A DNA stretch of 64,000 nt from Malacoraja senta. Taxonomy: Eukaryota. This document shows positions 1-62,900 of the stretch, one piece after another. The notes below the pieces were generated by a model. It did not search any database. It was not told the origin of the DNA and saw nothing but the letters and a program-made list of their open reading frames with translations. A program made the translations under genes and the position numbers. The stretch lies in the NCBI GenBank assembly GCA_038087875.1, contig CM075987.1:27840001-27904000 (forward strand), in the 5' to 3' direction. The stretch's first letter is position 1; each line of letters opens with the position of its first letter.

Positions 1-1503
1 GTCAGTGTTGACTCGGTGGGCAGAAGGGTCTGTTTCCGCACTATATCTCCAAACTAAACTAAACTTTTAAGTAAGTCAGGTCGTACATAAGTTGGAGCCA
101 CCATCGTCATCCCATGAGTGAACTGACTCACTGAGAGTATTAACCATCTCAGAGGCGTCTGGCTGCATATAGGGCACTTTCTGCAGGGCCTGACCTTCTG
201 GGTAAGCACCACCGCCATTGCAGGCTTGTTTCCAGCCAGTAGACGTACAAAGGGTCTCCATAAACATTTACTGATCTCTTCCTTTTTACAGAACTGTCGA
301 AGGTTTCACATCCCTTTTTATGTTTCATGATCAGTTACTCTTGTAATCTACCTTCCCTTTTCCTTGTCAATATTTGCTCCCCCTTTGCTGAATTCTGAAA
401 TAATCTCAATCCTCAGCCCTTGTGCCATTTCCCTCCAGCTGAACACCAGCTTTAACCTGTTCATGACAACAGCTAGACAACTTCTCCCTCTGTGCTTGTG
501 TGCCTCAAAGTAATACTGAAGAAGGGCCTCTACCCGAAACGTCACCCATTCCTTCTCTCCAGGGATGCTGCCTGTCCCGCTGAGTTACTCCAGCTTTTTG
601 TGTCTATCTTCGGTTTAAACCAGCATCTGCAGTTCCTTTCTACACACTTAAAGTAATACATGTTTGTCGTAAACTTTAGTTTAGTTTAGAGTTACAGCGT
701 GGAAACAGGCCATTCGGCCCACCGAGTCCATGCAGACCAGCGATCCCCGCACACTAACATTATCTCCTAAGGACACTAGGAACAATTTATTCTTTAAATA
801 TTAGTCATTGCTTATTTACTATTGGATCTTTTATGAAGTTTCCCAATGTACCAGTGACTCCTGGCTTCATCCTATTATAGTTGTGAATAATCCAAATCCT
901 TAAATTGCCTCCTGAATATTACAAATGAAATAATATATAATCAGTCTGAAGAAAGGTCCCAACCCGAAATATTATCTATGCATGTTCTCCAGTGATGCTG
1001 CCTGACCCGTTGATTTACTCCAGCACATTGTGTCTGTCTTTGGCATGAACCAGCATCTGCAGTTCCTTCTTACAACGTAGGGTGGATCTGTATAGTGGTT
1101 TGCCCAGACTATTTCCAGATTAAAGTCTCCAATGATTTAAATTATGCCCTCTATGTAACTTTTATTAGTTCTTCCTGAGCACAATCAAAAGGGGAAGTTT
1201 TCTAACAACTACTGTATATAAATAATTAAAGTTGGAATTTGCTTCCAGTAGAACTGTGAAATGGATGTTGTAATTATTCTTAATCAGTTGGCAATACCTG
1301 GTTTAGGTTTGATGTATTATAGTCACATATACCCAGATACAGAGAAAAGGGTTAATTTGCAGGCTGTCAAAACAAATCAGATAAGTTTGTTAAATCAGTT
1401 TGATGATGGGTCTCGACCTGAAACGTCACCCATTCCATTTGTCCAGAGATGCTGCCGGTCCCGCTGAGTTACTCCAGCTTTTTGTGTCTATTTTCAGATA
1501 ATA

Positions 1504-1833
1504 CGGTGTACCCTGGTTATTACGGACTTCATTATAACGGATTTTGGTTATAGCGGATAAAATCTGTAGCAACCGAGGCATCTTGCGTATCGGGAACAAA
1601 TGACTGAGTTTGTTGTATCATGTTGTGACCGCAATGTGGTTGGAGCGAATCTTGTCTGTCTGTGTTTACTGTTCCCATTTATTGTGTGTCTTGTTTAGTG
1701 TATGTTTATTGGCTGTTTTTCCAATACTGGAAATATTTACCCCCCCCTCCTTACTTGGTTATAGCAGACAATCGGCAATAATGGACACCATTCCCCCCCC
1801 CCCCCCGTAGCCAGTTCTAATAAGGGTTATCTG
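1504..1833. mobile_element. Possible old Tigger/pogo-like MITE
   Basis: TA-flanked, with degenerate inverted ends (C.GTGTACCCT / AGGGTTATCTG) and repeated TTAT.ACGGA-like subterminal motifs. Confidence 0.35.
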
Positions 1834-2134: not shown

Positions 2135-2495
2135 TAAGAAGGAACTGCAGATGCTGGAAAATCGAAGGTAGACAAAAATGCTGGAGGACCACCGTAAATT
2201 GGAGGAGCAGCACCTCATATTTCGCTTGGGTAGTTTACACCCCAGCGGTATGAACATTGACCTAACTTCAGATAACCCTTGCTTTCCTTCTCTATCCCCT
2301 CCCTTTTCCCAGTTCTGTCTCCGACTACATTCTATCTTTGTCCCGCGCACTCCCCTGACATCTGTCTGAAGAAGGTTCTCGACCCGAAACGTCGCCCATT
2401 CCTTCTCTCCAGAGATGTTGCCAGTCCCACTGAGTTACTCCAGCATTTTGTGTCTACCTTCGATTTAAACCAGCATCTGCAGTTCTTTCTTATAC
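2135..2495 (+). mobile_element. Penelope 3' fragment with pLTR and a short inverted pLTR piece
   Basis: Encodes RKLEEQHLIFRLGSLHPSGMNID (matches the end of the 50527-51990 element), followed by the hammerhead-like pLTR motif at 2366-2393. Confidence 0.8.
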
Positions 2496-2695
2496 ATTCA
2501 TAATTAAGCAGATACGCTCAATGCTCGTAGCCCCATTATCACCCATCCTCGCAGCTAGTTACAGTGCAGGCAAATATGGGAGCTGTTGTTCCTCCCACGT
2601 GGTGTCTCTGTGGGTTATCAGACCACACAGTGAGCCACTGAGACAAACATTGAGAAAATCTTGCAATGCCTTAGTGGCCGAATATGTTTGCAGAA

Positions 2696-2999: not shown

Positions 3000-3727
3000 C
3001 AGTGCCTCAACTGTGTGTGTGTGTCTTTGTTCGTTCGTGTGTCAGACGGCGTTCTGCCATCGCTTTGCCACGGCCAGCCAGTGCCACATCTGTGCCTCTG
3101 CGGAGATCGTGCCTCTCCGCCACAAGTCAGTAGGTGGGACTGTGTCCGGTAAACTGCTAACCCGTAATTGAGAGGAAATCTGTAAATTGCACAATTATAC
3201 TCTAAAACTGTGTAATTCAAATACAATTAGTTATGGATAAGGCACGAGGGTGTAACGATACCGTGTGCACTAAGGAGCTTTAGTTACAGACCAGTTGCCA
3301 CGGTTACATGATTTGATTGGAGCGAGTGAACCGTCAAGTTTGACTTTGGAATCTGCGGTTGCAGAATATTCAGATAACACAAGTCACATGCGGTAGATCA
3401 CATTGTGGAAGTGTAGTCGGGTTTAAACAAAGCCACCATTTGTATCATTATCATGTTGACATATTGATATCCATATTCCTGTGTGTTGGTGCAGAGTCTA
3501 GGTGGAGCAGGAGATTGCAGAACAGTTCCATCAGACAATGGGCCGAGAAAGAAACGTCACCTATCCATGTTCTCCACAGATGCTGCCTGACCCGCTGAGT
3601 TACTCTGCAACTTTATGTCCGTATTTGGAGTACAGAATTCTCTTTCCGGTCCCTCTCCCATCCATAGTTAACCCGAAGGACAGAGTTTTATTTGCATTTC
3701 CAGCACCCATTGTGTTCCTGGTTATTG

Positions 3728-3993
3728 TGTAGGAAGGAACTGCAATGCTGGTTTACACCGAAGATAGACACAAAATGCTGGAGTAACTCAGCGGGACCAG
3801 GCAGCATCTCTGAAGAGAAGGGATGAGTGACGTTTCAGGTCGAGAACCTTCTGCAGACTGAAGTTATCTCTGTGTCTTCTTCTCCCCTGACTCTCAGTCT
3901 GAAGAAGGGTCTCGACCCGAAACATCACCCAATTTTCTCCAGAGATGCTGCCTGTCTCGCTGAGTTACTCCAACACTTTGTGTCTATCTTCGG
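3728..3993. repeat. Palindromic pair of Penelope pLTR-derived repeats
   Basis: Left arm (GACACAAAATGCTGGAGTAACTCAGC...) is the reverse complement of the right arm; the same arrangement recurs at about 8 sites. Confidence 0.8.
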
Positions 3994-5850: not shown

Positions 5851-6036
5851 GTAAGTGCATTTGGTCAACAAAACCGTAGCTCTTGAAGTGGGCAAAATTC
5901 TTCCTTGTGCCGAGAGTGTTATTTGCAGGAGCCAAAACACAATTATTCTGCACCTTTTACTGGGATTTTCATGGATCATCTGTGATGGGTTATATTGGTA
6001 GAACAGCAGGAGGAATGGGACCTGGTGGATAATTGG

Positions 6037-6328: not shown

Positions 6329-8291
6329 AAAAACTTTTTGAAAGACCCTGCCCAGGCAGAATGGTGAGGTTGTCTTCCCCTGCTGTGGGTCCAACGTTAA
6401 CCTAGCTCAGCGGGCAGGAGAACCGTGAGATCACATGCAATGCCAGGATAATTATTTAGCAAGTAGAAGCTAAACCCAGTAGGCACCTGATCCTCTGAGT
6501 TCCCTTACAGGACAATGAGTTTAAAGTTGCCCCCAATGCTTCTCATTGTTCTTAAGATAGACACAAAAAGCTGGAGTAAATCAGCGGGTCAGACAGCATC
6601 TCTGGAGAAAAGGAATGGGTGACGTTTTGGGACGAGACGCTTCTTCAGACTGAGAGTCAGGGAGAGGGAAACGAGAGATATAGACGATGATGTAGAGAGA
6701 TATAGAACAAATGAATGAAAGATATGCAAAAAAGTATCGATGATAAATGAAACAGGCCATTGTTAGCTGTGGGCTAGGTGAAAACGAGTTACAGACAATG
6801 AGACTCATCAAGACAACTATGAAGCTAGAACAATGACTTGGGTGGGGGAGGGGTGGAGGAGAGGGGGTGCAGGGGTTACTTGAGGTTGCCTGCTGGGAGG
6901 GGTGGAGAGAGAGGGGGTGCAGGCAGGGGTTACTTGAGGTTGCCTGCTTCTTTGTTCTTGTGGATTGCAATGACTGCGGTTAGTTTCTTCAGTGGCGATG
7001 CTTCCTAAAACAAATACATTTTGCAAACCTCATCCTTTCTGTTCATGTCACTTTGGCTTCGCCATTTCTCATTTCCACTTCCTGTGTAACACTGCCATCT
7101 TCATGAGGTTATTTAGCTCAGTCTATGATTGTCACAATGTAAAGCTTTTTTCTTCCGTGCTATCCAGTCGATGAAATGTCTGTATAATCAAGCCGAATAC
7201 AGTGTACAGATACAGGTTAACGGGTATATCATGTAATGCAAGATAAAGACCGATTAAAGATAGTTCTAAAGTCTCCAATGAGGCAGAGGTCAGGACCGCT
7301 CTCTAACTGATGAGAGGATGGTTCAGTTGCCTGATAGCAGCATTCCATCATTGGTAGATAGACACACAAAGCTGGAGTAACTCAGCAGGACAGGCAGCAT
7401 CTCTGGATAGCAGGAATGGGTGAAATGTCAGGTCGAGACCTTTTGGTAGCCATGCTTTCACCTGCCTCAGCCTTAAACTCTGAAATTCCTTCTCTAAACC
7501 TCTCTCCCTTTCTCTCCTCCCTTACAAGGCTCCTGAAAACAAGTAACTTTGTCCAGACTTTAATTCACCTGCCCTATGCCATCTTACAAAGCTGGTTGCT
7601 TCAGTCTTAGACAATAGACAATAGACAATAGGTGCAGGAGTAGGCCATTCGGCCCTTCGAGCCAGCACAGCCATTTAATGTGATCATGGCTGATCATCCA
7701 CAATCAGTACCCCTTTCCTGCCTTCTCCCCATATCCCCTGACTCCCCTATCTTTAAGAGCCCTATCCAGCTCTCTCTTGAAAGCTCTTGTGTGTAAGTGC
7801 TGCAGTGGGACATTAGCGAAATGCTTTGATGAAGAAATGGAAGTTGCTGCAATAGGTTCATGTGATAGGAGCAGAATTAGGCCATTCGGCCCAACAAGTC
7901 TACTCCCAATTCAATCATGGCTGATCTATCTCTCCCCCTCAACCGCATTCTCCTGCCTTCTCCCCGTAACCCCTGACACCCATACTAATCAAGAATCTAT
8001 CTATCTCTGCCTTAAAAATATCCATTGACGCCTCCACAGCCTTCTATGAAAATGAATTCCACAGATTCACCACCTCTTACTAAAGAAATCCCTCCTCATC
8101 TCCTTCATAAAGGGACGTCCTTTTATTCTGAGGCTATGCCCTCTGGTCCTGGACTCTCCCACTAGTGGAAACATCCTCTCCACACCCAATCTATCCAGGC
8201 CTTTCGCTATTCAAGAGGCCTCTTTCTACTCTGGATAGGAAAGACGGCAGCTCGTCCTCGCTAACAGTCTCACTCCCCTTCCCGCTGGCAG

Positions 8292-9105: not shown

Positions 9106-10592
9106 CCCACACTAACAACACAATCTGAATGTTTCTGGGCTCTTGATAGTGTCGAACCTTTCTGATCTCTTGAGTTATTCCGTGCTTGGTCTTCACTTGC
9201 GTTTAGCGCTGCGCCCTGTCTGAGCACGAAAACTGGCCAACACTTTCATCCCCTGATAATGCAACCAATCTCCCACATCGGTCCTGTCCAATAAGTGGCA
9301 CAGATACATTGTGAAAGAAACCAAAACAGAAACAGTGGAAGAACTCAGCTTGTCCAGCGGTGTCTGTGGAGAGACTGCAGCCTTCACAAGGTGGATGACA
9401 ACAACTTCTCAAGGTCATAATATTCTTACTGTTCAACATCACCCACAGCCCATGAATGAAGTTTAAGTAACTCACCATTGTAACCACTCTTGAATCTGAG
9501 AGACGACATTCCATTTGCTCTTGCCTTGAATCACATTTTCTATCCACGTGATGAAACTTTTGCTGCCCAATCTTTTGTGTGGGATTTATCAAATACCTTC
9601 CAGAAGTCCATGTAGACAACACACACTGTAATCCCTTCATCGAGATGAAGTTTGAGTTGATAAAGGAGAGCTTTTATCTAATTATGTTTGGATGAACGAA
9701 TGTTGATCAAGTCACAAAGAAGTTGATGAAGGGATTGCAGTGGGTTTTCGCTACATGGGGCTTCTGGAAGGCTGTGTGTACGGAGTTTGTACGTTCTCCC
9801 CGTGACCTGTGTGGGTTTTCTCCACGATCTCCGATTTCCTCCCACATTCCAAAGTTTGTAGGTTAATTGGCTTCGGTAAAATTGTAAATTGTCCCTAACG
9901 TGTGTAGTATAGTGATAATGTACGGGGATCGTTGGTTGGCATGGACTTGGTGGGCCGAGGGGCCTGTTTCCACCTGTATCTCTAAAATAATCAAATAAAC
10001 CTCATATTGGAGAATGGTTAGAGTGGTGTTCTCTAGGGGACAGTGTGGGACTCCTTGGGTTTTGTTAATATACACTAATCATTTGCTATCTGTGGAAAAA
10101 TGCCCAAGTTTGTAGATATTCCAGAGATTGGAAGAGTAGCATGCACTCAGGATAGGAATAAGCTGCAAGACCTTGAATACTCGCTGAAAAGTCATCTGTC
10201 CATTTCCCTCCACAGATGCTGACTGACCTGCTGAGTTCCTCCAGCACTTTGTATTTTGCTCAGTTAAAGGGTAATCTGGTTCACATCACATTTCTCAGAC
10301 CATACTGTATTTTCACATTGGCTGTCATGTAGCCTCCATTACATCACCACCTGCACTCCAAACCTTCCCACTGGATGTGGAGCTCTTTTGAATGCCCATA
10401 AGGTTATGTAAGGTGCTTGGTAATGCTGAAGTCTGCAGAAGGGTCTCAAGCCAAAACGTCACCTATTCCTTTTCTCTATAGAGATGCTGTCTGACCCGCT
10501 GAGTTACTCCAGCATTTTGTGTCTGTCTACTAGATTATGCAAGTGTCTCTTTCTGTTTCTCTTGTTCTGAATGGGCTTCTTCTTTGTTCCAG

Positions 10593-12251: not shown

Positions 12252-15200
12252 AAGCATGTCTGTGGATCGCAGGATCAAATGATATCTCTGATTCTCATCT
12301 AATATTTTGGCTCTAGAATACCCCTATTCTAGGACTACACTCCAGTGGTATAGACTGGAAATCAACATCTGTGCCAAAACTGGGTTCAACTACCCCCAAA
12401 CTGAGTTATCAACATACTGATGTTTCATTCTTGGGTCAGAGTTTGGATAAGATGTTGACCGTTTGGGAAAGGTTGGGTAACTGGGATTTGTTTCAGTTGT
12501 TTTCTGATCTTGTTTGCCTTTAGAAAAAAAACACAATTTCCTTGTGAGTGTAATTTTGGGAGTTGGTGGTTTGGCCAGCCTAGGGTTTCCTCATGGCCCA
12601 TGGTTCTCTTGAGGATAAGGTGGTGATGTGCCTTATTGAACTGTGTATGAAGGAACTGCAGATACTGGTTTACACCGAAGATAGACACAAAAAGCTGGAG
12701 TCACTCAGTGGGTCAGGCAGCATCTCTGGAGAGGATTGGGTGACATTTCAGGTCGAGACCCTTCTTCAAACGTCACCTATTCCTTCTCTCCAGAGATGCT
12801 GCCTGACCCAATGAGTTACTCCAGCATTTTGAGCCTTATTGAACCCCAGGGATGGAATTAAAACAAGTGATGGGTGGGGCAGGAGACCCACACAGGCCAG
12901 GCCAGGCTCGAAAGGAATTACTTCTCTAAAGAACCAGTAGGTTTTTATTTTACTCCAGTAACTTCATAGCCACTTTTACGTTGCCACATTTTTATTTTCA
13001 TGTATTAGAAATGACTAACTCACTATTATTTGAAGTGACTCATTTATGAGATTACTAATCGTGTTAGTATTCACAATATTACCATATCTAACATCAATGG
13101 TAAAATGTTGAGATGAGATCTTTGAGAGTAAATGTTGGCAGGCCAGTTCACTGTCATGCACTTCTTGAATAGAAGAACAAACTTTACTTCAGAGATTGAG
13201 CGTGGAAATAGGCTCTTCTGTCCACCGAGTCCTCGCCAGCCAGAAACCCCCCCACTCCCCCGTACACAAGCACTGTCCTACACACCAGGGACGCAATTTA
13301 CACTTTACAGAAGTGAATTAACCCGCAAACCTGTTCGACCTTGGAGTGTGGGAGGAAACTGGAGCACCCGGAGAATACCCATGCAGTCAGAGGGAGAAGG
13401 TACAAACTCCGTACAGACAGCACCTACAGTCAGGATCGATCTCGGGTCTACCGCTGTACCACTGGGCCATGAAATAAACTTTGGATGATTCCCCCCTGAG
13501 TTGAGCTCAGAGTGATAACACTACCACTGTCACCTGGTAACTGATAATCCAAACCTAGTTGCTGGCAGCTGTCATGAGGCTTTCAGTGTTGGCAGTTTGT
13601 GAAAGGAAATGTCTGATATTCAGACATGAGCACATTGGTCTAGAATTCAGAACTTTCAAACTCTTTTGAGGCCACATAGTTAGGAGGATCATAGTTCCAT
13701 GTGCAGTGTGACCAGGTGATACTGAGAGGAAGAGGCTGGAGAGCTCAGTACCTTGACCCAGCTCCTACACATCCTAATTCACTGGGATTGCTATACTGAT
13801 CCATTGTAGACAGTTGTGATGTGATGCCCATGTTCTATTGTCCCCCTCACCTCCATTGCTCTCTGCCCCTTTGTCGCTCCATTCATCTCTCTCTGCATGT
13901 ATCTGTCTCTCCTTCTCTCCCCCTTCTAGCTGTATCACACAACCACAAACCAAAGGGCCTGTTTCCATGCCGTGGGACTAGTGTAGATGGGGCATCTTGG
14001 TCAGCATGGGCCAATGAGCCTGTTTCCTTGCTGTGTGACTCTATGAACCTTGAAAGGGATTTGGAAAGCGTTGGATGATAATCTTCTGGCTTGAACTGCA
14101 TTCTCCGGGAATTGTAATGCCATGCCCAACCCAAGGGAAAAGTTAATAGAAGTGGTTAAACTATATTTTAAAACATGTTTACTTCTGAGTTCTAGAGATA
14201 TTAAAGCCTAGGTTTTTGGGGTGGGGTGATGGGAATGGCTTGTGGAAGCTGGAGCGGGGGAGGTATGGAAGGATGATATACAGAGTTAACAAGCCCAGTG
14301 GCACAGTGAGATAAGGTTCTGCTGTATTGAAAGACATAAGAAATATGGTGGTGGGAAGGTTGGTTAATTCTGAATTCTGATTTCAAAGGGATTAAAGTTA
14401 GATGCCTTGGGCATGCTATTTTATAGAAACAAAGAACTGCAGATGCTGGTTAATACATAAAAAGGCTCAAAGTGCTGGAGTAAATCAGCAGGTCAGGCAG
14501 CATCCCTGGAGAACATGGATAGGTGACCATTTCAGGTCGAGACCATTCTTCACTCTGATGAGATGCCACCTGACCTGCTGAGTTACTCGGTGCTTTGTGC
14601 CATTATTTTATGCTCTCTGCCTCCTATTGATTACCATGGACCTCAGAAATATGCTCCAAACATATTGTTCTGGTGACTGAAAGGATTATTGCCGTCATAC
14701 TTTCTAAGCTGAATGAACATCCTCGCCCATTACAGGGTTACAGGTTGCATCTCTGGAACTGTATTGTGCCTGGTCCCTGATAGTTACTGATGAATGTATT
14801 ATTTATTCTGTAGCCTCTTATAGTTCAGCAGAAATATTTAAACTCATGTTTGTACTTTTGACATATGAATATATCTTCATTCAACACAATTTTGTCCTCC
14901 AGTCTTTAATGACCAGTGCATTCTCTGAACCTACACGTTAAAATGCCAAGTTCTTCTATACAAGGACACTAAGACACAATGTGGAAGAGCCAGAGAGAGG
15001 CACAGAGAGAAGTTATTCAGCAGTCTCTAACTAGAATTGCCCCTTGCCTCTTTCATGAATCATGAAATATGTAGCTTCTGAAGTAGCTACCTAAATCTCA
15101 GTAAAAACTCAGTAGAAAAAATGGTGCAGCTGCTTAGTGGACAAGGCAGATAAGATTGTGGGGAAATATTTATCTTCTATGAATTATGGAAGTGGTTGAG

Positions 15201-16697
15201 AGGGAGGTAGGAGACCATGCCTTCACTGTAGTCGATGGTTCAGACTATTGTCCCAATGTGATGCAGCAGAATCTGTGATTTCCACAGAATTGTTACTTAT
15301 TAGTCAAGAGTGTTTAATTGTCATATGTACTGAAACCGGAACAATAAATTTTTTACATGCAGCAGCATGACACAATATGCTTAAAGAAATATTAGAGGTT
15401 GGAACAAAGCGTCACTGAAGATGGCGCTGAAGCCAGGCGACTGCGTGCTGGTCCCAGAAGTGGATCTGCGATCAAACATTACAATCGCTCCACTCTTCTA
15501 AACCTTTATTTATCTGTTTGATTGTAATCATGCATAGTCTTGTCTTGACTGGATAGCACGCAACATAAAAGCTATTCACTGGACCTCAGTACACGTGGCA
15601 ATAACGTTTAGTGATACAGAGTGGATACGGGCTCTACGGCCCACGAAGTCCACGCCGACTAATGATCACCCCAATCATAACGTAGAACCAACTAGTTCTA
15701 TGTTATGGTAGACACAAAATGCTGGAGTAACTCAGCGGGTGAGGCAGCATCTCAGGAGAGAAGGAATGGGTGACGTTTTGGGTCGAGGCCCTTCTTCAGA
15801 CTCTATGTTATCCAAGTTTCACATCCTACACACTAGGGGCAATTTACTTACAAACCTGCATGTCTTTGGAGTGTGGGAGGAAACCTGGGTAGCCTAGGTG
15901 AGACACAACATCTATGGCACGTGTATTCTTTATGCAAGGCCATCTGACCTCTCACCTCATTTAAACATATTCATGTGTTCATCAGCCATGTTGACAGATT
16001 GTGAATGTCGGGGCAGTAGAAGAACACAAATCAATGTCCTATTCTGCATCGGAGGTGCAAAGGGACTTGGACGTGCTGGTACCGGATTCCCAAAAGGATG
16101 AATCAGTAGTAAGGTAGGCAAATGCAATGTGAGTATTCATTTCAAGAGGACTAGAATATAAAGGGAGGGATGTAATGGTGAGGCTTCATAGGGGACTGGT
16201 CAGACCATATTTGGAGAAATGTTTTGGACCCAATATCTGAGGAGGGATGTGCTGGTGTTGGAGAGGTATACGAGAATGATCGGGTTAACGTATGATGAGC
16301 GTTGATGACACACTTACAGAAGCTCTCCTCCAGAGTGCACATTCCCAGACTGTTGGCCCATATACACCTCCATGTGCTGTAGAACAGGGGGGGATATGTG
16401 GAAACGTGCATTTAGCTAAGTTTATCTCATGCTATTTAATAGGAAAGGGAGGGGTAACAGTTTCACACAAAGGGTGGTGCATGTATGGAACGAGCTGCCA
16501 GAGTTGAGGCTGGGACTATCCCAACGTTTAAGAAACATTGAGACAGGTACATGGATAGGACAGGTTTAGAGGGCAGGCGGGACTAGTGTGGCTGGGTCAT
16601 GCTGGTCGGTGTGGGCAAGTTGGGCCCAAGGGACTGTTTCCGTGCTGCATGACTTTATTTGTCTCTCTTTAAAAAGATTCCACTTGGTATCAATGCT

Positions 16698-20150: not shown

Positions 20151-20477
20151 AGAGTAAGTGATGTGAGCAATCAGGGAGCGGGGAAGGGAAAGGACAGGGA
20201 GGGAGAAAGGGAGAGAGAGAGAGAGAAGGGGGAAGAGGCAAGAGTGTTTTATTGCCATGCGTCCCAGATACAACTACGAAATCCTTACTTGCAGCAGCAC
20301 AACAGGATATATAAACGTAGTACACTGTAAACAATATAATAAACGAGAAAAAAAGTCCAGTGTATGTTCACATATATACACACACACATGTGATGTTTAA
20401 GAAAGAACTGCAGATGCTGGAAAAATCGAAGGTAGATAGAAATGCTGGAGGAACTCAGCGGGTGAGGCAGCAACGAA

Positions 20478-20523
20478 GGAATAGGCGACGTTTCGGGTCA
20501 AGACCCTTCTTCAGACCTCTTCC
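20478..20523 (-). ncRNA. Minimal type I hammerhead ribozyme motif in a Penelope pLTR-derived repeat
   Basis: Minus strand GGAAGAGGT-CTGAAGA-A-GGGT-CTTG-ACCC-GAAAC-GTC-GCCTATTCC: intact core, helix II, palindromic ACGT helix III and 8 of 9 possible helix I pairs. Activity is unproven. Confidence 0.6.
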
Positions 20524-45670: not shown

Positions 45671-47714
45671 CTTTCTAGATCTCTATACCTCTGGGAGCTT
45701 CTGCTCATTTCCCTCAGAATCAAAACATTACTTATGCTGGAATCCGGAAACGATACAAACAACATACTTTGGAAATCCTTGGTGGATTAGGCAGTATTTA
45801 TGGAGAAGGAAATTGCATTTGCTCTGCAGCTCCAAGCTGCACAGTGTCTCCACTTGGAATTATCGTCTAGTCTCCGACCTAAATCTCCCACTCAGTAACT
45901 CTGTGGCAGCAGGGATGGCTTCCTAGAGGTTGGAGAGGTCAGCACACCAAGAGCAGTTAGAGAGGGCTGGTAAATACTGCCCATACCAGTGACGTCTAGG
46001 GCAGCTGGTGAATTCAAAGTTCAATAACCTTTTAGCAGGACTGAGTCTTGAATACTTCTGTAAAATCTCCCCATGTCCACTCTACTCTTATTAGCAACTC
46101 CACCTCTCATTACTCCACAGAAACACTCAGAAAGCCAAGAAACGGGGCAGCATGGTGGCTCAGCAGTAGAGTTGCTGCCTCACAGTGCCAGAGATTCCAG
46201 TTCGATCCTGACCACGCGTGCTGTATGTACGGAGTTTGTACGTTCTCCCCATGACCGGGCATGTTTACGCACTTTATTTCTAAACTAAACTAAAAACAAA
46301 ACTAAACAGGTCCTTCAGCTGAGTGGGTCTGCACTGACCATCAAGCACTCATCTACATTCCTCTTACACTTTTCCTATTTTATTCTCTCAGATTCCCATC
46401 AATGTCCCTGAACATTCCACCACTCACCTGCAAACTCGGGGCAATCTCCAGTGGCCAATTAAACCCACTCACCTGCCTGTCTGAGCAGTAGGTAGAAAGC
46501 GGAGCACCTGGGGGAAACCCACACCATCTCCACACAGAACAGCACCAGAGGTCAGGATGTAGCAGTGGCTCTATTAGCTGCACAACTGTGTCCCATTACT
46601 GAGTAGGAAGGAACCGCAGATGCTGGTTTACACCAAAGATAGACACAAAGTGCTGGAGTAACTCTGCGGGTTAGGCCGCATCTCTGGAGAGAAGGAATAG
46701 GTGACGTTTCTGGTCGCGACCCTTCTTGGGTCTCGACCCGAAACGTCACCCATTCCTTCTCTCCAGAGATGCTGCCCGTCCCGCTGAGTTACTCCAGCAC
46801 TTTGTGTCCCATTACCGACAGCTTGCTGTATGGTTCTGGCTTCTTCGTTGCAAAATAATATCAAGGCAATGGAGACAGCCGGTAAAAAACGTTATATTAT
46901 CTGAAGAGGAAGTTATCACTGCCAGGAATGTTGAACAGGCTGGGGTTTACGGAAAAGGGAAGATTGACAGGTGAGGTGACCTTGAAAAGCTTTTGTAAAT
47001 GTTTAATCTGTGAGGGAATCAACATCCAAAATTCAAAGATATGAATGTGAAAGAAACTTTGTCCAGAGTGTGGTTAGAATGTGGAACAAGCTGCCACAAA
47101 GAGTAGTTGATGTTGGGGAAGCTGAACTCAAACCCAGAAGAAAAGAATAGTTCAATGAAGGGGGTTGATCTGCTGGAGTGAGAAGGGAGTTAATCCATGC
47201 TGAGATGGATGATGAGAGACTGTTTCCAGGCTGTAGGACAGAGCGTGGGGTTAAACTGGGAGAAGGGGTGATGGACCCAACGGTGGTGCAGTGGTAGAGT
47301 TGCTGCCTCACAGCACCAGAGACCTGGGTCCGATGCTATCTGTATGGAGTTTGTACGTTCTCCCCGTGACCGCCTGGGTTTTCTCCAGGTTTCCTCCCAC
47401 ACTCAAAAGACATGCAGGTTTGGAGTTTGGAGGGAGAGATAGATCAGCCATGATTGAATGGCAGAGTAGGCTTGATGGGCCGAATGGCCTAATTCTACTA
47501 GCACTTATGACCTATGAGTTGGTGGGCCGAAGGGCCTGTTTCCATGCTGTATCTCTAAACTGAACAAACTGGGAGAGAGAACACAGACTACATGGAGAGA
47601 ACACACAGTGCTGGAGACGTCACCTACACAGAGTAGACTTACTCCAGACCTGCCTCGTATACTTCAAACACCACGAAGGACTGGGCCTCTTGCTTTAGCT
47701 GCCGATTGGATTGT

Positions 47715-48382: not shown

Positions 48383-49488
48383 TAATGCCTATAGTAATCA
48401 CCCAGAATCTTGGTGTCTTTGTTGATGTAGTCTCTGGCTGCCTAACCGTGCCCATGGAGAAGTTGCTGCCTCACAGCAGAGACCTGGGTTCCATCGTGCA
48501 TCAAACATGGATAAGTGACGTTTCCGGTCGGGACCCTTCTTCAGACAACTTCCAATTGAGAATCACCGGGTGCAGCTTATAGAAATAAATCATTGTGGAA
48601 TGCTCCAGTGCTGTGGTCCTGTGGGTCAGCCTGATGCTCAGTTACATGTTTGGCTGACAGTATGCACTGTTGGTTCTTCAGTAGCTGAGATGTCCCCACA
48701 CACCCACACACCCAGCCACCCTACAGACACCCTCTGCCTACCTACCTGTATGGTAATGCGCTCTTGCTGGTCTGTGGTCTTTGTCCAGCTCTCTAATCCT
48801 GTAGCCACGGTTAACACAGCACTGTTAGCTCACAGCTCAAGTAGATAAGTGCAGAGTCACACAACCTGCTAAACCACAGCTGAGTAATAAAACCACTTCC
48901 TCTCCCCCGGGCCCGCTCCCCACTGCTCTGTGAACGCTGTACCACACCATGCACTTTGGTGCAGCTGCGGGAGATGACATACACATCACAGTCATTCACA
49001 CAGAGAGGCCGTGCTGGGTTAATCACTAACTGACTGGCTGCCTGTTCAATGCTACTCAGTGCCCATTGTCAGGAGCAGGTCTGTGTGAATGGGCAGTGCC
49101 CAGCTAATCATTAGCAAGTGGTCATCAAGAATCAGTCCAACTGTGATAGACACCAAATGCTGGAGTAACTCAGAGGGTCAGACAGTATCTCTGGAGAGAA
49201 GGAATGGGTGAAGATTCTGATCAGGACCCTTCAAAGAATCTTGACCTGAAACGTCACCTATTCCTTTTCTCCAGAGATGCTGTCTGACCCGCTGAGTTAC
49301 TCCAGCTTTTTGTGTCTATCTTCTAGAGATCTCCATCCTTCCTGACTGCTGTATCCTCAGTTTTAGTCCCAGCATTAGAAAACGTTATTGTGCATTCTGT
49401 GCTCTCTCCACATCCTCATAAAATGTTCAGATGACTTCAGGTGGTAGACAAGACCTCTTCATTTTCTGAAAAACGCTTGATGGATAAG

Positions 49489-50032: not shown

Positions 50033-52377
50033 CTAGACTAAGTGGGACCCGTTGGGTCCCATGTTCGCACGGGAGGGCTGGTCCCCCAACGCAATATTCC
50101 ACCTCCACCAATTCCAATATTGGTGGCCAGTGGGGGGGGGGGGGGGGGGCTTTCTGGAGCGCTAGTTTCCAGAGGGCTAGTATGGACATTGTGGGTCTGG
50201 CAACTCAGTCACTCAGGCCTGGTGGGCTGGCAGCTCAGTCACTCAGGGCTGGTGGGCTGGCAGCTCAGTCACTCAGGGCTGGTGGGCTGGCAGTTCACCC
50301 ACGGCTATTCCTTGAAATTCCATTTCAAGCAGAGTGAAGGCCACCAAATTCAATTTGAGAGCATTTCAAGCGGTGCAGGCCAACAAATTCAATTTCATAG
50401 CATTTCAAGCAGCGTGCAGGCCAACAAATTCAATTTCATAGCATTTCAAGCAGAGTGCAGGCCACCAAATTGCAAAACAACTCATTGCATTGTCATTAAG
50501 GGCTAACAAATCATTTATTGCAAGTAGTTTAAGAAGGAACTGCAGATGCTGGAAAACCGGAGGTAGACAAAAATGCTGGAGAATCTCAGCGGGTGAGGCA
50601 GCATCTATGGAGCGAAGGAAATAGGCAACGTTTTGGGCCGAAACCCTTCTTCAGACTGATGTGAGGGTGGAGGGGGGGGCGGCGGGAAGAAGAAAGGGAG
50701 AGGAGGAGCCAGAGGGCTAGAGGGAGAGCATAGAAGGGGAGGAGACAGTAAGGACTACCTGAAATTAGAGAAGTCAATGTTCATACCGCTGGGGTACAGA
50801 CTGCCCCAAGTGAAATATGAGGTGCTGCTCCTCCAATTTCCGTTGGTCCTCACTCTGGCCATGGAGGAGGCCCAGGACAGAAAGGTCGGATTCGGAATGG
50901 GAGGGCGAGTTGAAGTGCTGAGCCACTGGGAGATGAGGTTGGTTATTGGTTCGGCGAAGCAATCGCCAAGCCTACGCTTGGTCTCACCGATGTAGATCAG
51001 CTGACAACTAGAGCAGCGGATGCAATAGATGAGGTTGGAGGAGATGCAGGTGAACCTCTGTCGCACCTGGAAAGACTGCTTGCGTCCTTGAATTAAGTCA
51101 AGGAGGGAGGTAAAGCGACAAGTGTAGCATTTCTTGCGGTTGCAAGGGAAAGTGCCCAGAGAGGGGGTGGTTTGGGTGGGAAGGGACGAATGGACCAGGG
51201 AGTCACGGAGGGAGCGGTCTCTGTGGAAAGCAGACATGGGAGGAGATGGGAAGATGTGGCAAGTGGTGGGGTCACGTTGGAGGTGGCAAAAATAACGGAG
51301 GATTATTTTTTGTACGTGACAGCTGGTAGGGTGGAAGGTGAGGACAATGGGGACTCTGCCCTTGTTACCAGTGGGGGGATGGAGAGAGAGAGCAGTGTCA
51401 CGGGGCATCGAAGAAACCCTGGTGAGAGCCTCATCTATGGCAAAAGAGGGGAACCCCCGTTCCCTGAAGAATGAGGACATCTCCGATGCCCTGGTGTGGA
51501 ACACCTCAGCCTGGGAGCAGATGCGGCGTAGACGGAGGAATTGGGAGTAGGGGATGGAGTCCTTACAGGAAGCAGGGTGGGAAGAAGTGTAGTCCAGATA
51601 GCCATGGGAGTCAGTGGGTTTATAATGGATGTCGGTCAGAAGTCTATACCTGCAATGGAGATAGCGAGGTCCAGAAATGGTAGGCAAATGTCGGAAATGG
51701 TCCAGGTGTATTTGAGTGCCGGATGGAAGTTAGTGGTGAAATGGATGAAGTCAATGAGTTGTGGGTGCAGGAGGTAGCACCAATGCAGTCGTCATGTAGC
51801 GGAGGTAGAGTTCGGGGATGGGGTCCTGGTACGTCTCGAACAAAGATTGTTCGACATACCGTACAAAGAGGCAGGCATAGCTAGGGCCCATGCGCGTGTC
51901 CACAGCTATTTCCTTGTATTTGGAGGAAATGGGAGGAGTCAAACGAAAAGTTATTAAGGGTAAGGACTGCGGAGGAGAGTATCAGTAGTATTATTGCAAG
52001 TACATTGCAGACTCACAGTTCAGTTGATTCACAGCTTAGAATCACAGTTGTGGACTCGCCCTCATGATCTTCCAGAGTGACTGACTCACGTCCAGGCATC
52101 CGGGGTTTTATAGTCCTGCCCCCCCCCCCCCCCGGAAGTGGCGTTACCTTCATCGTGGTGATTGACAGGCGAGAGGACCAATCAGCTGATCTCAAGATTT
52201 TTTAAACACTCAGAACTTTTTTATTTTCCATCGATCGGAAAAATCCTCGGGGCTGCCTCAGCGGAGGACTGTGAGTAAGATGGCCAAAAATAATAGAGAT
52301 ATATGGTAGCGTTTTTTCTAAAATCAATATACTGCGCAGACAAGAAGTTGTCAAGATGAGACTTTTAGTTATATAGA
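50033..52377 (-). mobile_element. Non-autonomous Helitron carrying the Penelope insertion
   Basis: Minus strand starts TCTATATA, ends with hairpin GGGACCC-AAC-GGGTCCC followed by ACTTAGT-CTAG; sits between A and T without a TSD; internal 30-bp and about 40-bp tandem repeats. Confidence 0.8.
50527..51990 (-). mobile_element. Penelope-like element (RT C-terminus, GIY-YIG endonuclease, pLTR), 5'-truncated
   Basis: ORF 50755..51687 with YKPTDSHGYLDYTSSHP, IPYSQFLRLRRICS and NLIYCIRC..C..IYIGETKR; flanked by a 12-bp duplication TTATTGCAAGTA (50515-50526, 51991-52002). Confidence 0.92.
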
Positions 52378-54094
52378 TATGTAACAAAAATGGAACAAAG
52401 ACGTTCCCACTTGCAGCAGCGATAAACTATTAAACTGAGCTAAACATGTCCATAAACACAATATTCATAGATAATACAATTAACCAAATAAAGTTCAACA
52501 AATTAAAAATATATATCATTGCAAAAGAGAAGCCAAAGTCGCTAGTGCAATCTTGATAGTTCATATTTCCTAGTTTACTTGGTGTAGATGATAATCAATT
52601 GAGTTCATAGTTCGTTGTCTTTACCATGGCTACAACACAAAGCCATTTGACGTATTCCACAAATCCTAAAATTGTGTTTCTCACTTCCAAGTCCTCATTA
52701 GTCCCACAGCGCAGAAACGGGCCCTTCGGCTCATCGATTCCACGCTGACCAGTGATCCTACACACACTAGGGATAATTTACAATTCTTTACCGGAGCCAA
52801 TTAACCTACAAACCTACACGTCTTTGGAGTTGGGAGGCAACCGGAGAAAACCCACACAGGTCGCGGGGGAGAACGTACAAACTCCGCACAGACAGCACCT
52901 GTAGTCAAGATGGAACCTGGGTCCCTGGCGCCGTGAGGCAGCAACTCTACCGCTGTGCCACCGTGCTGCTCGTTAATGTGAGAAATCAAACAATAGTGCT
53001 CCCAAATGTAAATCAGAAAATGCAAATGTTGGATACAGAAACAGAAAAGAGTAGAAATACTGATTGGGTGAGGTTAGTGTTGCTGTGATGGTCAGCATTT
53101 GCTGGAGTAACTGGTTGATGGATTAATGAAGGTAGTTAAAGGGAGCTAACTCAAACAAAGGCATTTCAAGGTTCTGCAGTGAGGACAGTTGGAGAAAGAA
53201 TCCAGAAACAATGGAATGTAAAAGCTGTGAATAGTGAAATGCCTGGATAGAGTGGATGTGGAGAGGATGTTTCCACGAGTGGGAGAGTCTAGGACCAGAG
53301 GTCATAGCCTCAGAATTAAAGGACATTCTATTGGGAAGGAGATGAGGAGGAATTTCTTCAGTCAGAGGGTAGTGAATCTGTGGCATTCTTCGCCACAGAG
53401 GCTGTGGAGGCCAAGAGGGTACTTTCCTTCCGGTGTTTGTATCTTCTGCCCAATGGGAGAGGGGAGAAATGTGAACGACCGGGGTCTGAGTGGTTCTTGA
53501 TTATTGTCGGCTACGTGGGATGGCAGGAAAATAAACTATGAAACCAGCGATCCCCACACACACATCAAGTCTTCACCACCATTCAATCATAGCTGATCTA
53601 TCTCTCCCTCCTAGCCCCATTCTCCCCATAACTCCTGACACTCGTACTAATCAAGAATCTATCTATCTCTGCCTTAAAAATATCCACTGAAGACCTCCAC
53701 AGCCATCTGTGGCAAAGAATTCACAGATTTACCACCCTTTGCTCAATCTCTTCTCAATAACAGACCTCATCCATCCCAGAATCAATGCGATGAACAATGT
53801 TGTGTTCCTATCCTTCCCTAGGTGGGGTTAGCACACCTCACAGTCTCATCAAGGCTCTCTAGAACGGAAGCAAAATGTCTTGTCCTCAAATCCTGTTGCA
53901 GTAAAGGCCACTGTTTCATGGCTGATCTAAGTTGCCTTCCACCTGTGCATCAGCTTCAGTGATTTGTGTAACAGGGTAGAGGGGCCTCTCTGGACCCCAA
54001 CACGTCCTGACTTCTCACCGTGTGAGAACTGTTCCACGTGAATGACAAGCGGATAACCTTCAATTAGTCTAGTTCAGACGAAAGGTCCCAACCC

Positions 54095-54292
54095 GAAATG
54101 TCACCTATCCATGTTCTCCACAGATGCTGCCTGACCCGCTGAGTTACTCCAGCACTCTGTGAAACGTCACCTATCCATGTTCTCCAGAGTTGCTGCCTGA
54201 TCCGCTGAGTTACTCCAGCACTCTGTGAAACGTCACCTATCCATTTTCTCCACAGATGCTGCCTGACCCACTGAGTTACTCCAGCACCCTGT
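54095..54292 (+). repeat. Tandem array, 3 x 66 bp, of the same unit
   Basis: GAAA(C/T)GTCACCTATCC recurs at 54095, 54161 and 54227. Confidence 0.9.
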
Positions 54293-55169
54293 GTCATTTT
54301 TACTTAGTCAATATATATTGACCCCCTGAACTGTCTCTGCCTCCTAACTTTATATATCAGCAGATTTGGATATTTTTCTTGATTAGTACGGGTTTCAGGG
54401 GTTATGGGGAGAAGGCAGGAGAATGGGGTTGAGATAGATCTCCGTGATTGAATGGCAGAAGAGACTTGATGGGCTGAATGGCCTAATTCAACTCCTAAAA
54501 CTTATGAAGTTATGTATTTCACACTCAATTCCTCGACCAGTCATTAATCCAGAGTGTGAACAGCCTTAGCCCTGAGCCCTGGGTGACCCCATCAGTTGCA
54601 GCTCCCAACCCAAGCACAAACCCTTTATTCCTTTCTCTCTATTATACAATACTTCATCAACACTCATATATTCCACTGTGAACTGATTCAGTTTAATTAT
54701 CTTGTGGATGATAATAATATCAGAGACAAACTCCTTCATGAAACAAGCATCCATTGATTTGATGTTATATTTCCTGCTAATATTTACCTCAAAACTCTAA
54801 CCTGCTCGTTAAGCGTAATTCCCCTTGCTTAACTACTTGTGGATTCTGCACAACCCTGCTATTGTTTTCTAAGCGACCTATTACTACTTCCTTAATAGAT
54901 ACAAAATGCTGGAGTAACTCAGCAGGACAGGCAGCATCCCTGGAGAGAAGGAATGGGTGATGTTTCGGGTCAAGACCCCTCTTCAGACTAGTCTCCCAGC
55001 ACGAAAAGCCACCCATTCCTTCTCTGGAGAAAGGAGATGCTGCCTGGCCCACTGAGTTACTCCAGCATTTTGTGTCTATCTTCGGTGTAAACCAGCATCT
55101 GCCGTTCCTTCCTACACACTACTTCCTTAATGAAGGATTCCTGTATTTTCGCCATAGTCCGAGTGGTCA

Positions 55170-59961: not shown

Positions 59962-62900
59962 TATATATATGACTTGTGAATATGATTGTAATCATATATA
60001 ATTATGTATAATTATATAATTATATAATTATATAATTATAAAAATAATATAATGAATATAATTGTGCGTTTTTTTTCGAATGAGCCTGCCGCAGTGTGCA
60101 GAGTGGGGGTCACGGCTAAAGTGGGACTGGGGCAGTGCCAGGCTGGGGGAAGGCTAAGGCATCTTCCACTGACAGGAAAATGCCTAACCCTAACCCTAAC
60201 CCGCCCCCCTTCCAGAGCTGCCAACGGCTGGAACTGGAGCCGCTTTGGGACCGGCTGCGGGCTCCGTACGTGTGGCCCCACAGCGCGTCCACCTCGGCCA
60301 GCATGCCATTCTGGTGGTGATGATGGTGGGGAGCAGCACTGCCCTGCACGACGCCCGGGCTGCCTTCAGCACCCCCAACGCTCACCACCCACCGGAGGCC
60401 CAGCCCGACCCAATGCTCACCACCCGCCGGAGGCCCGACGGCCCGACCGATCCTCCACAGCATCCATCGACCTACCGACAAACCCGACCAACAGACTGAC
60501 CGACTGACTGACTGACCCTAATCCTAACCCTAGCTCTACATTTGTTATTTATCATTTTTATTTAACAGTTCACATCATAACTTTATAAAGATAAATCAAT
60601 TGAAAAACAAAATTATCAGCAAGGGGAGCATTACCTTTATCCTTGGAAACCTTGCTATTGCTATTGATGTAATGAGGAGGCAGCCATGATCCCAGGGTCC
60701 TCGCTGCCTAGCGACCATAAAACAAAGCGCAGGATTGGTCAATTTGCGTCCGAACATAAAGTCAAACGTGCATTGATTGGCCAATTACTAAGAAAATTTG
60801 AGGTTTTTCTCATATTTCTTAAAAATGTGCAGGTTTTGTTCTTGATGAGTTTCAGGTATGATTTATATAATATTTTTACACAATATGTTAAAAATGTAGG
60901 TATTTCCGTGAGCTGGGTCACGAACCTGAACGAGAAAGCTCCTCGGCCCACAGCCTAAGGAGGGGTTGTCATATGAAGACCATTTAAGGATAACCCGCCA
61001 GCAATTCCTCTGTTTATTGCACTCAAGGAGAAACTAGAGAAGTAAATGAGGGCGAAAGTAACAACAGAGATATGGACAGGATTAGATAAAGTGCTTGGCG
61101 GGGGAGGGGCGGTGCAGGGAGGATCATGTAGCACTTAAACTCGGCACAACTTGTTGAAAGGAACGCAGAGTTTCTGAGCTGTAAATTCTGCATCTATTTG
61201 TACATGGAATACTTCAATTTGTACATGGATTACAAAATACAATATTAATTATTCTGAAGAAGGGTCTCGACCCAAAACGTCACCCATTCCTTTTATCCAG
61301 AGATGCTGACTGACCCGCTGAGTTACTCCAGCATTTTGTGTGTATTGCAGCTGCACATTGCAGAGTGAACAGTGACCCTTGCGTTCTGTGTAGAAGCAGG
61401 GATTCTGTCTCCGAGACACTCTGCTAACAGCGCGCCCGACTAGGTTGATCAGTACCTGCCAATTCCACACTCCCTCCTGAGTGAATCTCAAATTCACCAT
61501 GTAAATAAAAGCCTACCTTTTCTTTCCAACTGCAAGCTGGAATAGCGACCGAGGGTTTTTCCTCGAAGCAGTCTGGATCGCCTCTCCATTAGTTGAGACA
61601 AAAAGGTGCAGCCACGGTATGCAAAGGGCTAAACCACAAAATGCAGAGCCCTCCTGCCCAAGGCTGAAGTTGTGTTTCCAATGCTGATAACGCTGGTTTC
61701 CAACTAGTCAGGACACGTTTTTTCCAACGATCCTGCACCAGAATAATTCTGCCAGTTTCCTGGAATTACTCAAATCAAATTTATATAATTCCAAAATATT
61801 CCCATGTTTTTTGTTTTACTTCATGGTGCTGCATCATTTTTGCATCTGATTTGCCTGAGCTAATTCTGCCGCAAGATGCATCAGTTTCTCTCAACAACTG
61901 ATCACAAATAAAACCCAGCCTCTGTCTGCTGAGGAAAGGCTTGGATGAATGTCCCTTTAAAACAATCCACATTGCTGCAGCAACAATCCTAAATGGTGAC
62001 AGAGTTATAGAAACAGGCCCTTCAGCCCACCCAGGCTGAACCATGACTGCACTATCCCATCAACTCTGCCAGGTTCATTACATACCGGGGGCTGTTCACA
62101 GAGGCAATTCACTGCCCAGCCCGCACATCTGTGGGATGTGGGAGGAAACCGTAGCACCCGGAGGAAACCCACATTATCATAAGGTGAACATATAGACAGC
62201 ACCTGAACTGAAGTCAGGATTGAACCTGGGTCTGTGGAGCTGTGAAGCAGCAGCTCTACTAGCTGTACTACTGTGCCACTCCAAAGCTGCAGCACTGTTG
62301 GCCCTTGTTGCAGGATACTGGAGTACTGGAATCAAAACATCTTGCTGGAGATATACAGGGCTCTGGTGGGATACCGTGAGCCTGACCATGGCTCTGCAAC
62401 CAGGGGTCTGAAGGAGTGAATGGGATTAGTGATGCAGCAAGATATAGGTCAGTTGGACATCTGGACGGAGAATTTGCAGATGAAGTTTAATCCAAACAAT
62501 AATGAAGTGTTGAATTTAGGGGGTCAAATGCAAGAAGAGAGCATCTAATAAATGGCAGGTCACTCAGGAGCATCAATGGACAGGTGGTGCCAGTTTATAG
62601 CTCCCTGATAGTGGCAACACAAGTGGACACATTCTTGCCTTCAACCATCGAGTGTGAAAGTTGGCAAGTCATGTTGTAAATGTTTCACACTTTGGGAGTA
62701 TTGTCTTCAGTTCTGGTCACCTTGTGGAGGCTCTGGAGCAGGAGCAGAAGATGGTCATCAGGCTGTTTGTTGTCTGAATCGGGATATAACAGCTACAGGC
62801 AAATTTGTTGGACACATTTGGATTCTTTTCTCAGACGCTGAGGGGAGACATGATGGATCCATATAAAATGAAGAGAGGCATAGATAGGGTAGACAGTCAG

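What the first reader, a model, noticed from the sequence alone, without database searches (positions are those of the whole stretch)
516..61285. The dominant short repeat carries a minimal hammerhead ribozyme motif, dispersed in many copies
Seen in sequence: consensus CTGA(A/T)GA-A-GGGT-CTCG-ACCC-GAAAC-GTC, e.g. + strand at 516-543, 2366-2393, 3899, 38702 and 61254, and - strand near 6620, 15770, 20487, 35172, 48517 and 50627. This is the CUGANGA/GAAA/GUC core with a 4-bp helix II (loop variants CUCG, CUUG, UUCG) and a loopless palindromic ACGU helix III. The motif lies directly 3' of Penelope ORF ends at 2366 and 50627. Established knowledge: Penelope-like elements carry short-stem-III hammerheads reported to cleave as dimers. 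Many copies here are damaged at CpG sites. Inference: this genome holds a very large family of ribozyme-bearing pLTR fragments, several inside gene introns.
Basis: partly seen in the sequence, partly recalled or inferred. Interest (0 to 1): 0.7.

Follow-up and report, generated by a model that had tools for sequence, protein, structure and literature searches.

The report
Skate Penelope ends carrying weak hammerheads
The repeat is the short end piece of a very abundant Penelope-like jumping gene in a skate-like fish and carries the known minimal hammerhead-ribozyme motif, here with a two-base-pair first stem that is predicted to cut poorly; the kind is known, and most short copies begin just before the motif, not at its cut site, so they were likely copied from uncut RNA.

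Summary
Observation confirmed. The window has 25 motif copies within 6 mismatches and shuffles have none. Two exact 28-mers occur 18,728 and 19,101 times in the genome; a sample extrapolates to about 370,000 whole-core copies. The motif sits in the pseudo-LTR of a Penelope-like element (RT plus GIY-YIG, Neptune-type linker; 3,872-nt tandem unit). Minimal hammerheads in such elements are published.

No pair shows a two-sided compensatory change, and a competing fold is predicted. Only 1 of 21 scored window copies keeps every feature. Eight copies lie in BSPRY introns, and none is complete.

About half of the copies are separate short insertions, many with target-site duplications. They start 0-8 nt before the core and end about 66 or 102 nt after the cut site; starts do not pile up at the cut site. 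They are likely run-off products from uncut RNA that begins at the motif. This scan has noted the same family and pile-up in other skate genomes. Cleavage is untested. Known kind, modest interest.

The parts
516..648 (+). Solo short copy (core 516-543, long 3' end with tail), flanked by a 12-bp target-site duplication; in BSPRY intron 1; helix II 3/4, no helix I
940..1072 (+). Older decayed copy (core 946-973), BSPRY intron 1
1394..1490 (+). Short copy (core 1400-1427, C3 mutated), BSPRY intron 1
2184..2497 (+). 5'-truncated Penelope-like copy: endonuclease C-terminal remnant, pyrimidine-rich spacer, motif 2366-2393 (helix II 3/4, helix I 2 bp), tail
3726..3992 (.). Head-to-head pair of copies (cores 3829-3856 minus, 3899-3926 plus; the plus copy has lost the helix III palindrome)
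6554..6662 (-). Copy with some element upstream sequence (core 6621-6648, G12 lost), antisense in the BSPRY intron between exons 5749-5859 and 8289-8522
10431..10524 (+). Decayed copy (core 10433-10460), BSPRY intron between exons 8289-8522 and about 10552-10719
12637..12831 (.). Inverted-joined pair; junction at the helix III palindrome (core 12742-12769 minus)
15707..15801 (-). Solo short copy (core 15772-15799, G12 lost), short 3' end, 10-bp target-site duplication
20393..20516 (-). The only window copy with intact core, palindrome, 4-bp helix II and a helix I of 4 bp (plus 6 bp beyond a bulge) supplied by its own flank; core 20487-20514; folds as a hammerhead in silico
27410..27624 (.). 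Inverted-joined pair (core 27531-27558 plus)
35108..35201 (-). Short copy (core 35174-35201, G12 lost)
37403..37649 (-). Tandem array, 3.7 x 66 nt, of the part 3' of helix II; lacks the CUGA box
38702..38831 (+). Solo short copy with tail and an about 10-bp target-site duplication (core 38702-38729, G12 and palindrome lost)
46604..46808 (.). Head-to-head pair joined inside the motif
48517..48547 (-). Very short copy (core 48517-48544; helix II 3/4)
50522..51986 (-). 5'-truncated Penelope-like element (85% to the L043 unit): RT thumb, linker, GIY-YIG region (frameshifted), spacer, motif 50627-50654 (G12 lost), tail
54074..54295 (+). Decayed core (54075-54102) followed by a 3 x 66 nt tandem array of the 3' part
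54896..55118 (.). Head-to-head pair (core 54959-54986 minus, palindrome lost)
61253..61344 (+). Solo short copy (core 61254-61281, G12 lost)

Best explanation
The repeat is the 3' tip (about 95 or 135 nt) of the pseudo-LTR of an abundant Penelope-like retrotransposon in a skate-like genome, and it carries the known minimal hammerhead motif of such elements, which here would cut only as a dimer and likely only with help from the element's protein, while the dispersed copies are likely inert by-products of copying uncut RNA. Shown: the motif, its place about 100 nt after the ORF stop, a tandem unit with a motif at each end, two preferred 3' ends about 35 nt apart, target-site duplications, a pile-up of 5' ends 0-8 nt before the core and none at the cut site. 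Inferred by analogy with the anole element PAc: the protein nicks DNA and primes reverse transcription at two internal sites about 66 and 102 nt after the scissile bond. Inferred (about 45%): transcripts start at the Inr-like TCAGT just before the core, so priming in the upstream pLTR runs off the RNA 5' end and gives the short solo and inverted copies, while priming in the downstream pLTR gives the long copies. Inferred: two motifs pair through ACGU to form helix III; with a 2-bp helix I and a competing stem, cleavage is slow or protein-gated and is not needed for insertion.
For: [quoted passage not shown] L043 has motifs 3,872 nt apart with 99.6% identical repeats. All 20 long-ORF loci carry a motif, in most cases about 100-150 nt after the long frame's end. 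The motif matches the published consensus in core, extra nucleotide, G10.1-C11.1 and palindrome. Common subfamily changes fall in loop II, H17 (C/U) or keep the pair on one side (U-A/U.G at 10.4-11.4 and at the first helix I pair); subfamily consensuses keep the core. 3' ends peak at +65-69 (45 of 174) and +100-104 (35 of 174); in 84 young copies at +65-68 (40) and +99-106 (21), matching the 30-40 nt tail and the two RT starts of PAc. Target-site duplications of 8 bp or more: 20 of 91 unique-flank copies against 0-1 in controls, 13 of 27 young solo copies against 0-1. 5' starts: 68 of 374 at -3..-1, 112 at -6..+1, 84 over +2..+25, 10 at +26..+30 around the cut; 41 of 84 young copies end within 8 nt of the core and 43 run further. 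In four public runs depth rises 6- to 110-fold between L043:1305-1307 and 1314-1316. PAc's hammerhead cuts only with protein, is dispensable for insertion in vitro, and uncut RNA is the main substrate (PMC11167929).
Against: No cleavage test and no RNA-end data. Helix I is 2 bp in 34 of 36 element-attached copies and never 3 or more; published 2-bp examples are all G-C pairs, this one is one G-C plus U-A or U.G. No two-sided change in 6 pairs, and no family with a C-G first pair (525 scattered copies; 24 of 30 fetched have 1-2 bp). The hammerhead fold is 6-8 kcal/mol above the minimum-energy fold in two intact element-attached copies, with helix II probability about 0; z-scores are unremarkable. 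For the run-off step: the 5' boundary is spread over about 8 nt and blurred by microhomology, and no clear cap-derived G was seen. RT phylogeny was not done, so Neptune versus Nematis rests on the linker motif and on known vertebrate distribution.
Confidence: 0.8

Rival explanations
1. On the 5' boundary: the RNA starts further upstream, and the RT stalls or switches template on reaching the TCAG-T-CTGA palindrome and the long pyrimidine tract just before the core.
For: Perfect head-to-head copies centred on the base before the core exist (L212, L249) and need cDNA reaching about -4/-5. The boundary is fuzzy, and many junctions use microhomology. Palindromes at pLTR 5' ends were read as self-priming in rotifers (PMC3846280). 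D. virilis Penelope starts transcription 46 nt before a 75-nt intron that ends at helix I, well upstream of its motif.
Against: The same boundary holds across subfamilies with different pyrimidine tracts. Start density is high through the whole motif and falls off beyond about -12. The 41:43 short-to-long split of young copies fits two priming sites per transcript, though it may be chance.
Confidence: 0.4
2. On activity: the motif is catalytically dead in this lineage and is kept for another job (protein binding, promoter or RT priming signal).
For: 2-bp helix I, no two-sided covariation, competing fold; no insertions enriched at the cut site; PAc inserts without cleavage.
Against: All six subfamily consensuses keep the catalytic boxes, a cleavable H17 and the palindrome while loop and flanks differ; the two helix I pairs are 100% paired in 12 distinct element-attached copies; 2-bp helix I motifs are published.
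Confidence: 0.35
3. The short unit is its own non-autonomous family (SINE-like or retrozyme) that copies itself using the element's protein.
For: Preferred ends, target-site duplications, solo copies outnumber element-attached ones 91 to 36.
Against: Short and long copies share the same diagnostic letters in the young subfamily; ends vary copy by copy; the tandem arrays in the window lack the CUGA box, whereas retrozymes need a motif in each unit.
Confidence: 0.12
4. Many dispersed copies are active ribozymes that cut host pre-mRNA, for example in BSPRY introns.
For: Six of 8 BSPRY intron copies are in sense orientation; 3,402 exact-core copies genome-wide have a 3-bp helix I through their flank (against 27,943 with the usual A); the copy at 20487 folds correctly in silico.
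Against: None of the 8 intronic copies has all features; a partner is needed for helix III; published minimal hammerheads are inactive as monomers and weak as multimers; the two strands hold equal numbers (not resolved by gene orientation).
Confidence: 0.07

Closest known systems
Minimal type I hammerheads (min-HHR) in pLTRs of metazoan Penelope-like elements, Cervera and De la Pena 2014 (PMC4209133; main text parts 1-2 of 4, supplement file 2 part 2 and passages)
   Same: CUGANGA plus one extra base, G10.1-C11.1, loopless palindromic helix III (A-CG-U), place in both flanking repeats, mass dispersal as single motifs.
   Different: Helix I is 2 bp with only one G-C pair (descriptor 3-7 bp; listed 2-bp cases in Culex, D. 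virilis and Oikopleura are G-C only); helix II is 4 bp; no compensatory covariation among subfamilies; no cartilaginous fish among the rows I saw; the estimated copy number is far above the 4,000-9,000 reported for coelacanth and Xenopus, counted by a different method.
Poseidon_Ac (PAc) of Anolis carolinensis, Frangieh et al. 2024 (PMC11167929; parts 1-2 of 4)
   Same: Hammerhead at the pLTR, two 3' ends forming an optional tail downstream of the cut site, no sign of ends at the cut site.
   Different: PAc is Poseidon-clade and its ORF starts inside the motif; here a CX4CxxC linker is present and the first ATG of the long frame in L043 lies about 165 nt after the core start. A 5' pile-up at the motif is not mentioned in the parts read.
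Neptune-type endonuclease-positive Penelope-like elements (Craig et al. 2021, PMC8557442, passages; Arkhipova et al. 2013, PMC3846280, passages)
   Same: RT with C-terminal GIY-YIG, DKG motif, Cys linker, partial tandems, adjacent inverted truncated copy, 30-40 nt tail, variable target-site duplications.
   Different: Very high share of stubs that consist only of the motif and its 3' flank.
Short-stem-III hammerheads that cleave as dimers (Lunse et al., PMC5785218; not held, known only through passages of PMC6765202 and PMC6466107)
   Same: Unstable palindromic helix III, association with Penelope-like elements.
   Different: Could not compare helix I lengths or species; dimer cleavage is untested here.

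Membership tests
min-HHR of metazoan PLEs | CUGANGA box plus optional extra base | tested here: met
   descriptor
min-HHR of metazoan PLEs | Helix II 3-7 bp, loop 3-10 nt, closed by G10.1-C11.1 | tested here: met
   4 bp and 4 nt
min-HHR of metazoan PLEs | GAAANNUH with palindromic 15.2/16.2 | tested here: met
   CG in 180 of 265 copies, the rest mostly CpG decay
min-HHR, strict published descriptor | Helix I of 3-7 bp | tested here: not met
   2 bp in 34 of 36 element-attached copies, none with 3 or more; only 6 of 151 sampled and 1 of 23 window copies pass, through flank or point changes. Not filed under the strict descriptor.
PLE hammerhead variants with 2-bp helix I (Culex, D. virilis, Oikopleura rows) | Two conserved pairs next to the core | tested here: met
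   G-C 12 of 12, U-A/U.G 12 of 12; published rows
min-HHR of metazoan PLEs | Compensatory covariation among families | tested here: not met
   0 of 6 pairs with two-sided change; one-sided changes only; subfamilies are close, so power is low
min-HHR of metazoan PLEs | Located in both pLTRs of a PLE | tested here: met
   L043 tandem, L047 inverted
min-HHR of metazoan PLEs | Self-cleavage as dimer | not testable with these tools
   needs in vitro assay
EN+ Penelope-like element | Single ORF with RT and C-terminal GIY-YIG | tested here: met
   (Pfam scores below curated cut-offs; motifs read directly)
EN+ Penelope-like element | pLTR tandems, inverted truncated copy, 30-40 nt tail, variable target-site duplication | tested here: met
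Neptune clade | CX2-5CxxC linker between RT and EN | tested here: met
   shared with Nematis
Neptune clade | RT phylogeny | not tested
   no named reference proteins were fetched
Non-LTR retrozyme | Tandem non-coding units each with a whole hammerhead | tested here: not met
   the two 66-nt arrays in the window lack the CUGA box; definition; not tested genome-wide

The most novel reading that the evidence does not exclude
The element's transcript begins at the first base of the hammerhead, so the same 35 nt serve as internal promoter in DNA and as a protein-gated ribozyme in RNA; internal priming in the upstream pLTR makes a strong-stop-like run-off cDNA that is inserted on its own, which produced hundreds of thousands of ribozyme stubs and records that the RNA is uncut when copied.
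Probability: 0.4. Interest if true: 0.55.

Novelty: new member of a known kind. Interest (0 to 1): 0.27.

Why it matters
The motif and its host class are published, so the finding as written is ordinary. What the copies add is a large fossil record of how a Penelope-like element is copied: two fixed start points for reverse transcription, a preferred stop at the hammerhead's 5' edge, and no trace of cleaved templates. That bears on an open question, whether Penelope hammerheads cut during transposition at all, and gives a young, nearly intact element and a 2-bp-helix-I motif to test it with. It also shows that descriptor searches needing 3 bp of helix I miss nearly all of this family, whose end piece covers about 4% of sampled bases.

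Tried and rejected
Rfam at gathering score: no match. PDB sequence search with P0002: no match. Sequencing runs: no RNA holder listed, contigs only, so RNA ends, strand and level could not be examined; searches are used only for coverage shape and variants. Spliced-template idea (pyrimidine tract plus CAG looks like a 3' splice site, at about the place where the D. virilis intron ends): none of 344 copies had sense-strand element sequence joined at that AG with a GT donor in the element; 18 rows were printed, nearly all inverted or restart junctions, and target duplications abut the boundary. Rejected as the source of the short copies; splicing of the RNA itself is not excluded. Cap-derived extra G: among the first 100 listed matches, counted by eye, the base before AGT was G 38, A 35, T 27 (2,028 matches) and the base before GT was G 47, T 28, C 25 (3,128 matches); the second excess is confounded by microhomology with the element's own GGGT and ACGT (rows). 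Inconclusive. A family with a longer helix I: the published descriptor found 10 hits in 1.17 Mb, all of this family; the C-G first-pair search gave 525 scattered copies. Distant relatives: 34 metagenome loci, 2 with a minimal hammerhead with 4-bp helix I (L160, L163), too distant to align; alignment A1 had one wrong row and was not used. Pfam scan of 34 small ORFs for BSPRY exons found nothing useful; homologues did. Literature searches found no description of this motif in cartilaginous fishes or of the 5' pile-up; Repbase, Dfam, the Lunse paper, figure panels and bioRxiv supplements could not be seen and may hold either.
Full report
Observation. The window holds 25 places within 6 mismatches of the 28-nt consensus and 10 shuffles hold none; about 50 pieces match the wider 170-nt reference. 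The two commonest exact 28-mers occur 18,728 and 19,101 times in the 1.94-Gb genome, with zero for the reversed control. In 80 evenly placed 10-kb stretches of large contigs there were 151 whole-core copies and 309 pieces covering 31,673 of 800,000 bases. This extrapolates to roughly 370,000 and 750,000 copies; small contigs were not sampled. CpG positions are the most decayed. Rfam has no match.

Host and genes. The SPRY exon at 11703-12248 is 92% identical to little-skate BSPRY, so the host is a skate-like fish (inference). BSPRY exons map about 5 kb before the window and at 5749-5859, 8289-8522, about 10552-10719 and 11703-12248. The copies at 516, 946, 1400, 2366, 3829, 3899, 6621 and 10433 are therefore intronic, six of them in sense. 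None of the eight keeps core, palindrome, helix II and helix I together. Of 21 window copies scored, only 20487-20514 does. Other copies were not assigned to genes.

Parent element. The 324-residue frame at 50755-51729 had 118,811 first-look candidates, of which 123 were scored. I fetched 20 of the hits with long frames; all carry a motif, mostly just past the frame's end. L043 is a tandem with motifs 3,872 nt apart and 99.6% identical repeats. Its protein has RT and GIY-YIG hits below Pfam's cut-offs, and DKG, YIDD, a CX4CxxC linker and the two Cys within GIY-YIG. These features mark Neptune/Nematis-type Penelope-like elements (PMC8557442, passages); Neptune and Poseidon are the clades reported in vertebrates (bioRxiv 10.64898/2026.07.22.740005, part 1 and passages). 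No tree was built.

Is it a hammerhead? It matches the published minimal motif in the two boxes, the extra base, G10.1-C11.1 and the palindrome (PMC4209133). It fails that paper's descriptor, which needs 3-7 bp of helix I. Helix I is 2 bp in 34 of 36 element-attached copies and never longer. Of 151 sampled copies, 49 have boxes and helix II, 40 add 2 bp of helix I and 6 add 3 bp. The paper lists 2-bp cases, all G-C pairs. Subfamily changes are one-sided (U-A to U.G) or in the loop or H17; no pair changes on both sides in 12 distinct copies, though the subfamilies are too close for a strong test. ViennaRNA prefers a stem in which the purine run of the core pairs with the pyrimidines after the cut site, 6-8 kcal/mol below the hammerhead fold in two intact copies. 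The anole element's hammerhead cuts only with its protein and is not needed for insertion in vitro (PMC11167929). I take weak, dimer- and protein-dependent cleavage as most likely (about 60%) and a dead relic as the main rival (35%).

How the copies were made. Of 169 classifiable whole-core copies, 91 have a unique upstream flank, 35 an inverted copy, 36 element sequence and 7 other (5 dropped for short flanks). In the unique class, identity to the element is 81%, 65% and 56% at -1, -2 and -3 and 29% at -4. Duplications of 8 bp or more abut that boundary in 20 of 91, against 0-1 in mismatched controls. In 84 young copies from the first 80 listed regions of contig 1 (not a random sample), 41 end within 8 nt of the core, 43 run further, and 13 of 27 solo copies have such a duplication. 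3' ends fall near +66 and +102, the known optional tail. Among 374 copies anchored on their 3' part, 68 start at -3..-1, 84 across +2..+25 and 10 at +26..+30 around the cut; a few rows in that set are spurious and small peaks at +33 and +37 were not resolved. Contigs from four public runs show the same rise in cover at the motif's 5' edge. Every copy that spans the scissile bond came from uncut or re-ligated RNA.

Why the 5' ends stop there. Best guess (45%): the RNA starts at the TCAGT before the core. Inr-like motifs are reported in rotifer pLTRs (PMC3846280, passages) and an internal promoter in D. virilis Penelope (PMC2377424, passages); calling this one Inr-like rests on those and on recall. 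The rival (40%) is stalling or template switching at the local palindrome and pyrimidine tract; perfect head-to-head copies and the upstream start of D. virilis transcripts favour it. No cap-derived G was clear and no spliced junction was found.

Novelty. The motif class, its host and its dispersal are published. Six searches found no account for cartilaginous fishes or of the 5' pile-up, but Repbase, Dfam, the Lunse paper and figure panels were out of reach. Earlier notes of this scan describe the same family and the same pile-up in several other skate genomes; these are unchecked AI notes and not independent support. Verdict: real, new member of a known kind, interest 0.27.

Noticed in passing
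window:20464-20529 (minus): This copy's upstream flank resembles a decayed inverted piece of its own 3' side and supplies a 4+6 bp helix I; it folds as a hammerhead in silico. Junctions can thus rebuild a long helix I; 3,402 exact-core copies have at least 3 bp.
   Followed up: partly
L063, L067, L076, L084 (oldest subfamily, 8 copies): The bases after the cut site could pair with the upstream CAGU for 4 bp if one base bulges, a hint that helix I was longer in the ancestor and that the conserved CAG is its relic rather than a promoter motif.
   Followed up: no
window:37403-37649 and 54095-54293: Two separate 66-nt tandem arrays of the region 3' of helix II, with similar unit boundaries; both are of the older subfamily.
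   Followed up: partly
L043:1312-1343: The ACGT palindrome lies 27-30 nt after the putative start and partly resembles (5 of 8) the downstream promoter element RGACGTGY reported for Drosophila Penelope; a weak lead.
   Followed up: no
L043:1442-5041: The young element's long frame is about 1,200 codons with a long proline-rich low-complexity stretch before the RT; this copy is frameshifted near the endonuclease end.
   Followed up: no
window:23391-24128 (minus): GC-rich 245-codon frame with a basic stretch, a hydrophobic segment and an acidic run, resembling by eye the N-terminal part of the torsin-4A-like ORF at 41923-43215; no Pfam hit and no tblastn match to it.
   Followed up: partly
window:18237-19040 (minus), 41923-43215 (minus): HAD-family hydrolase (likely HDHD3, recalled as BSPRY's neighbour in human) and a torsin-family gene, each in one coding exon.
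   Followed up: partly
window:55249-57525, 25323-26474, 58845-59594: Other mobile elements: two LINE reverse-transcriptase frames (758 and 383 codons) and a Tc1-type transposase frame.
   Followed up: no
L160:3212 (plus) and L163 (minus, 306 nt from the end): Minimal hammerheads with 4-bp helix I near distant Penelope-like RT matches in metagenome contigs.
   Followed up: no
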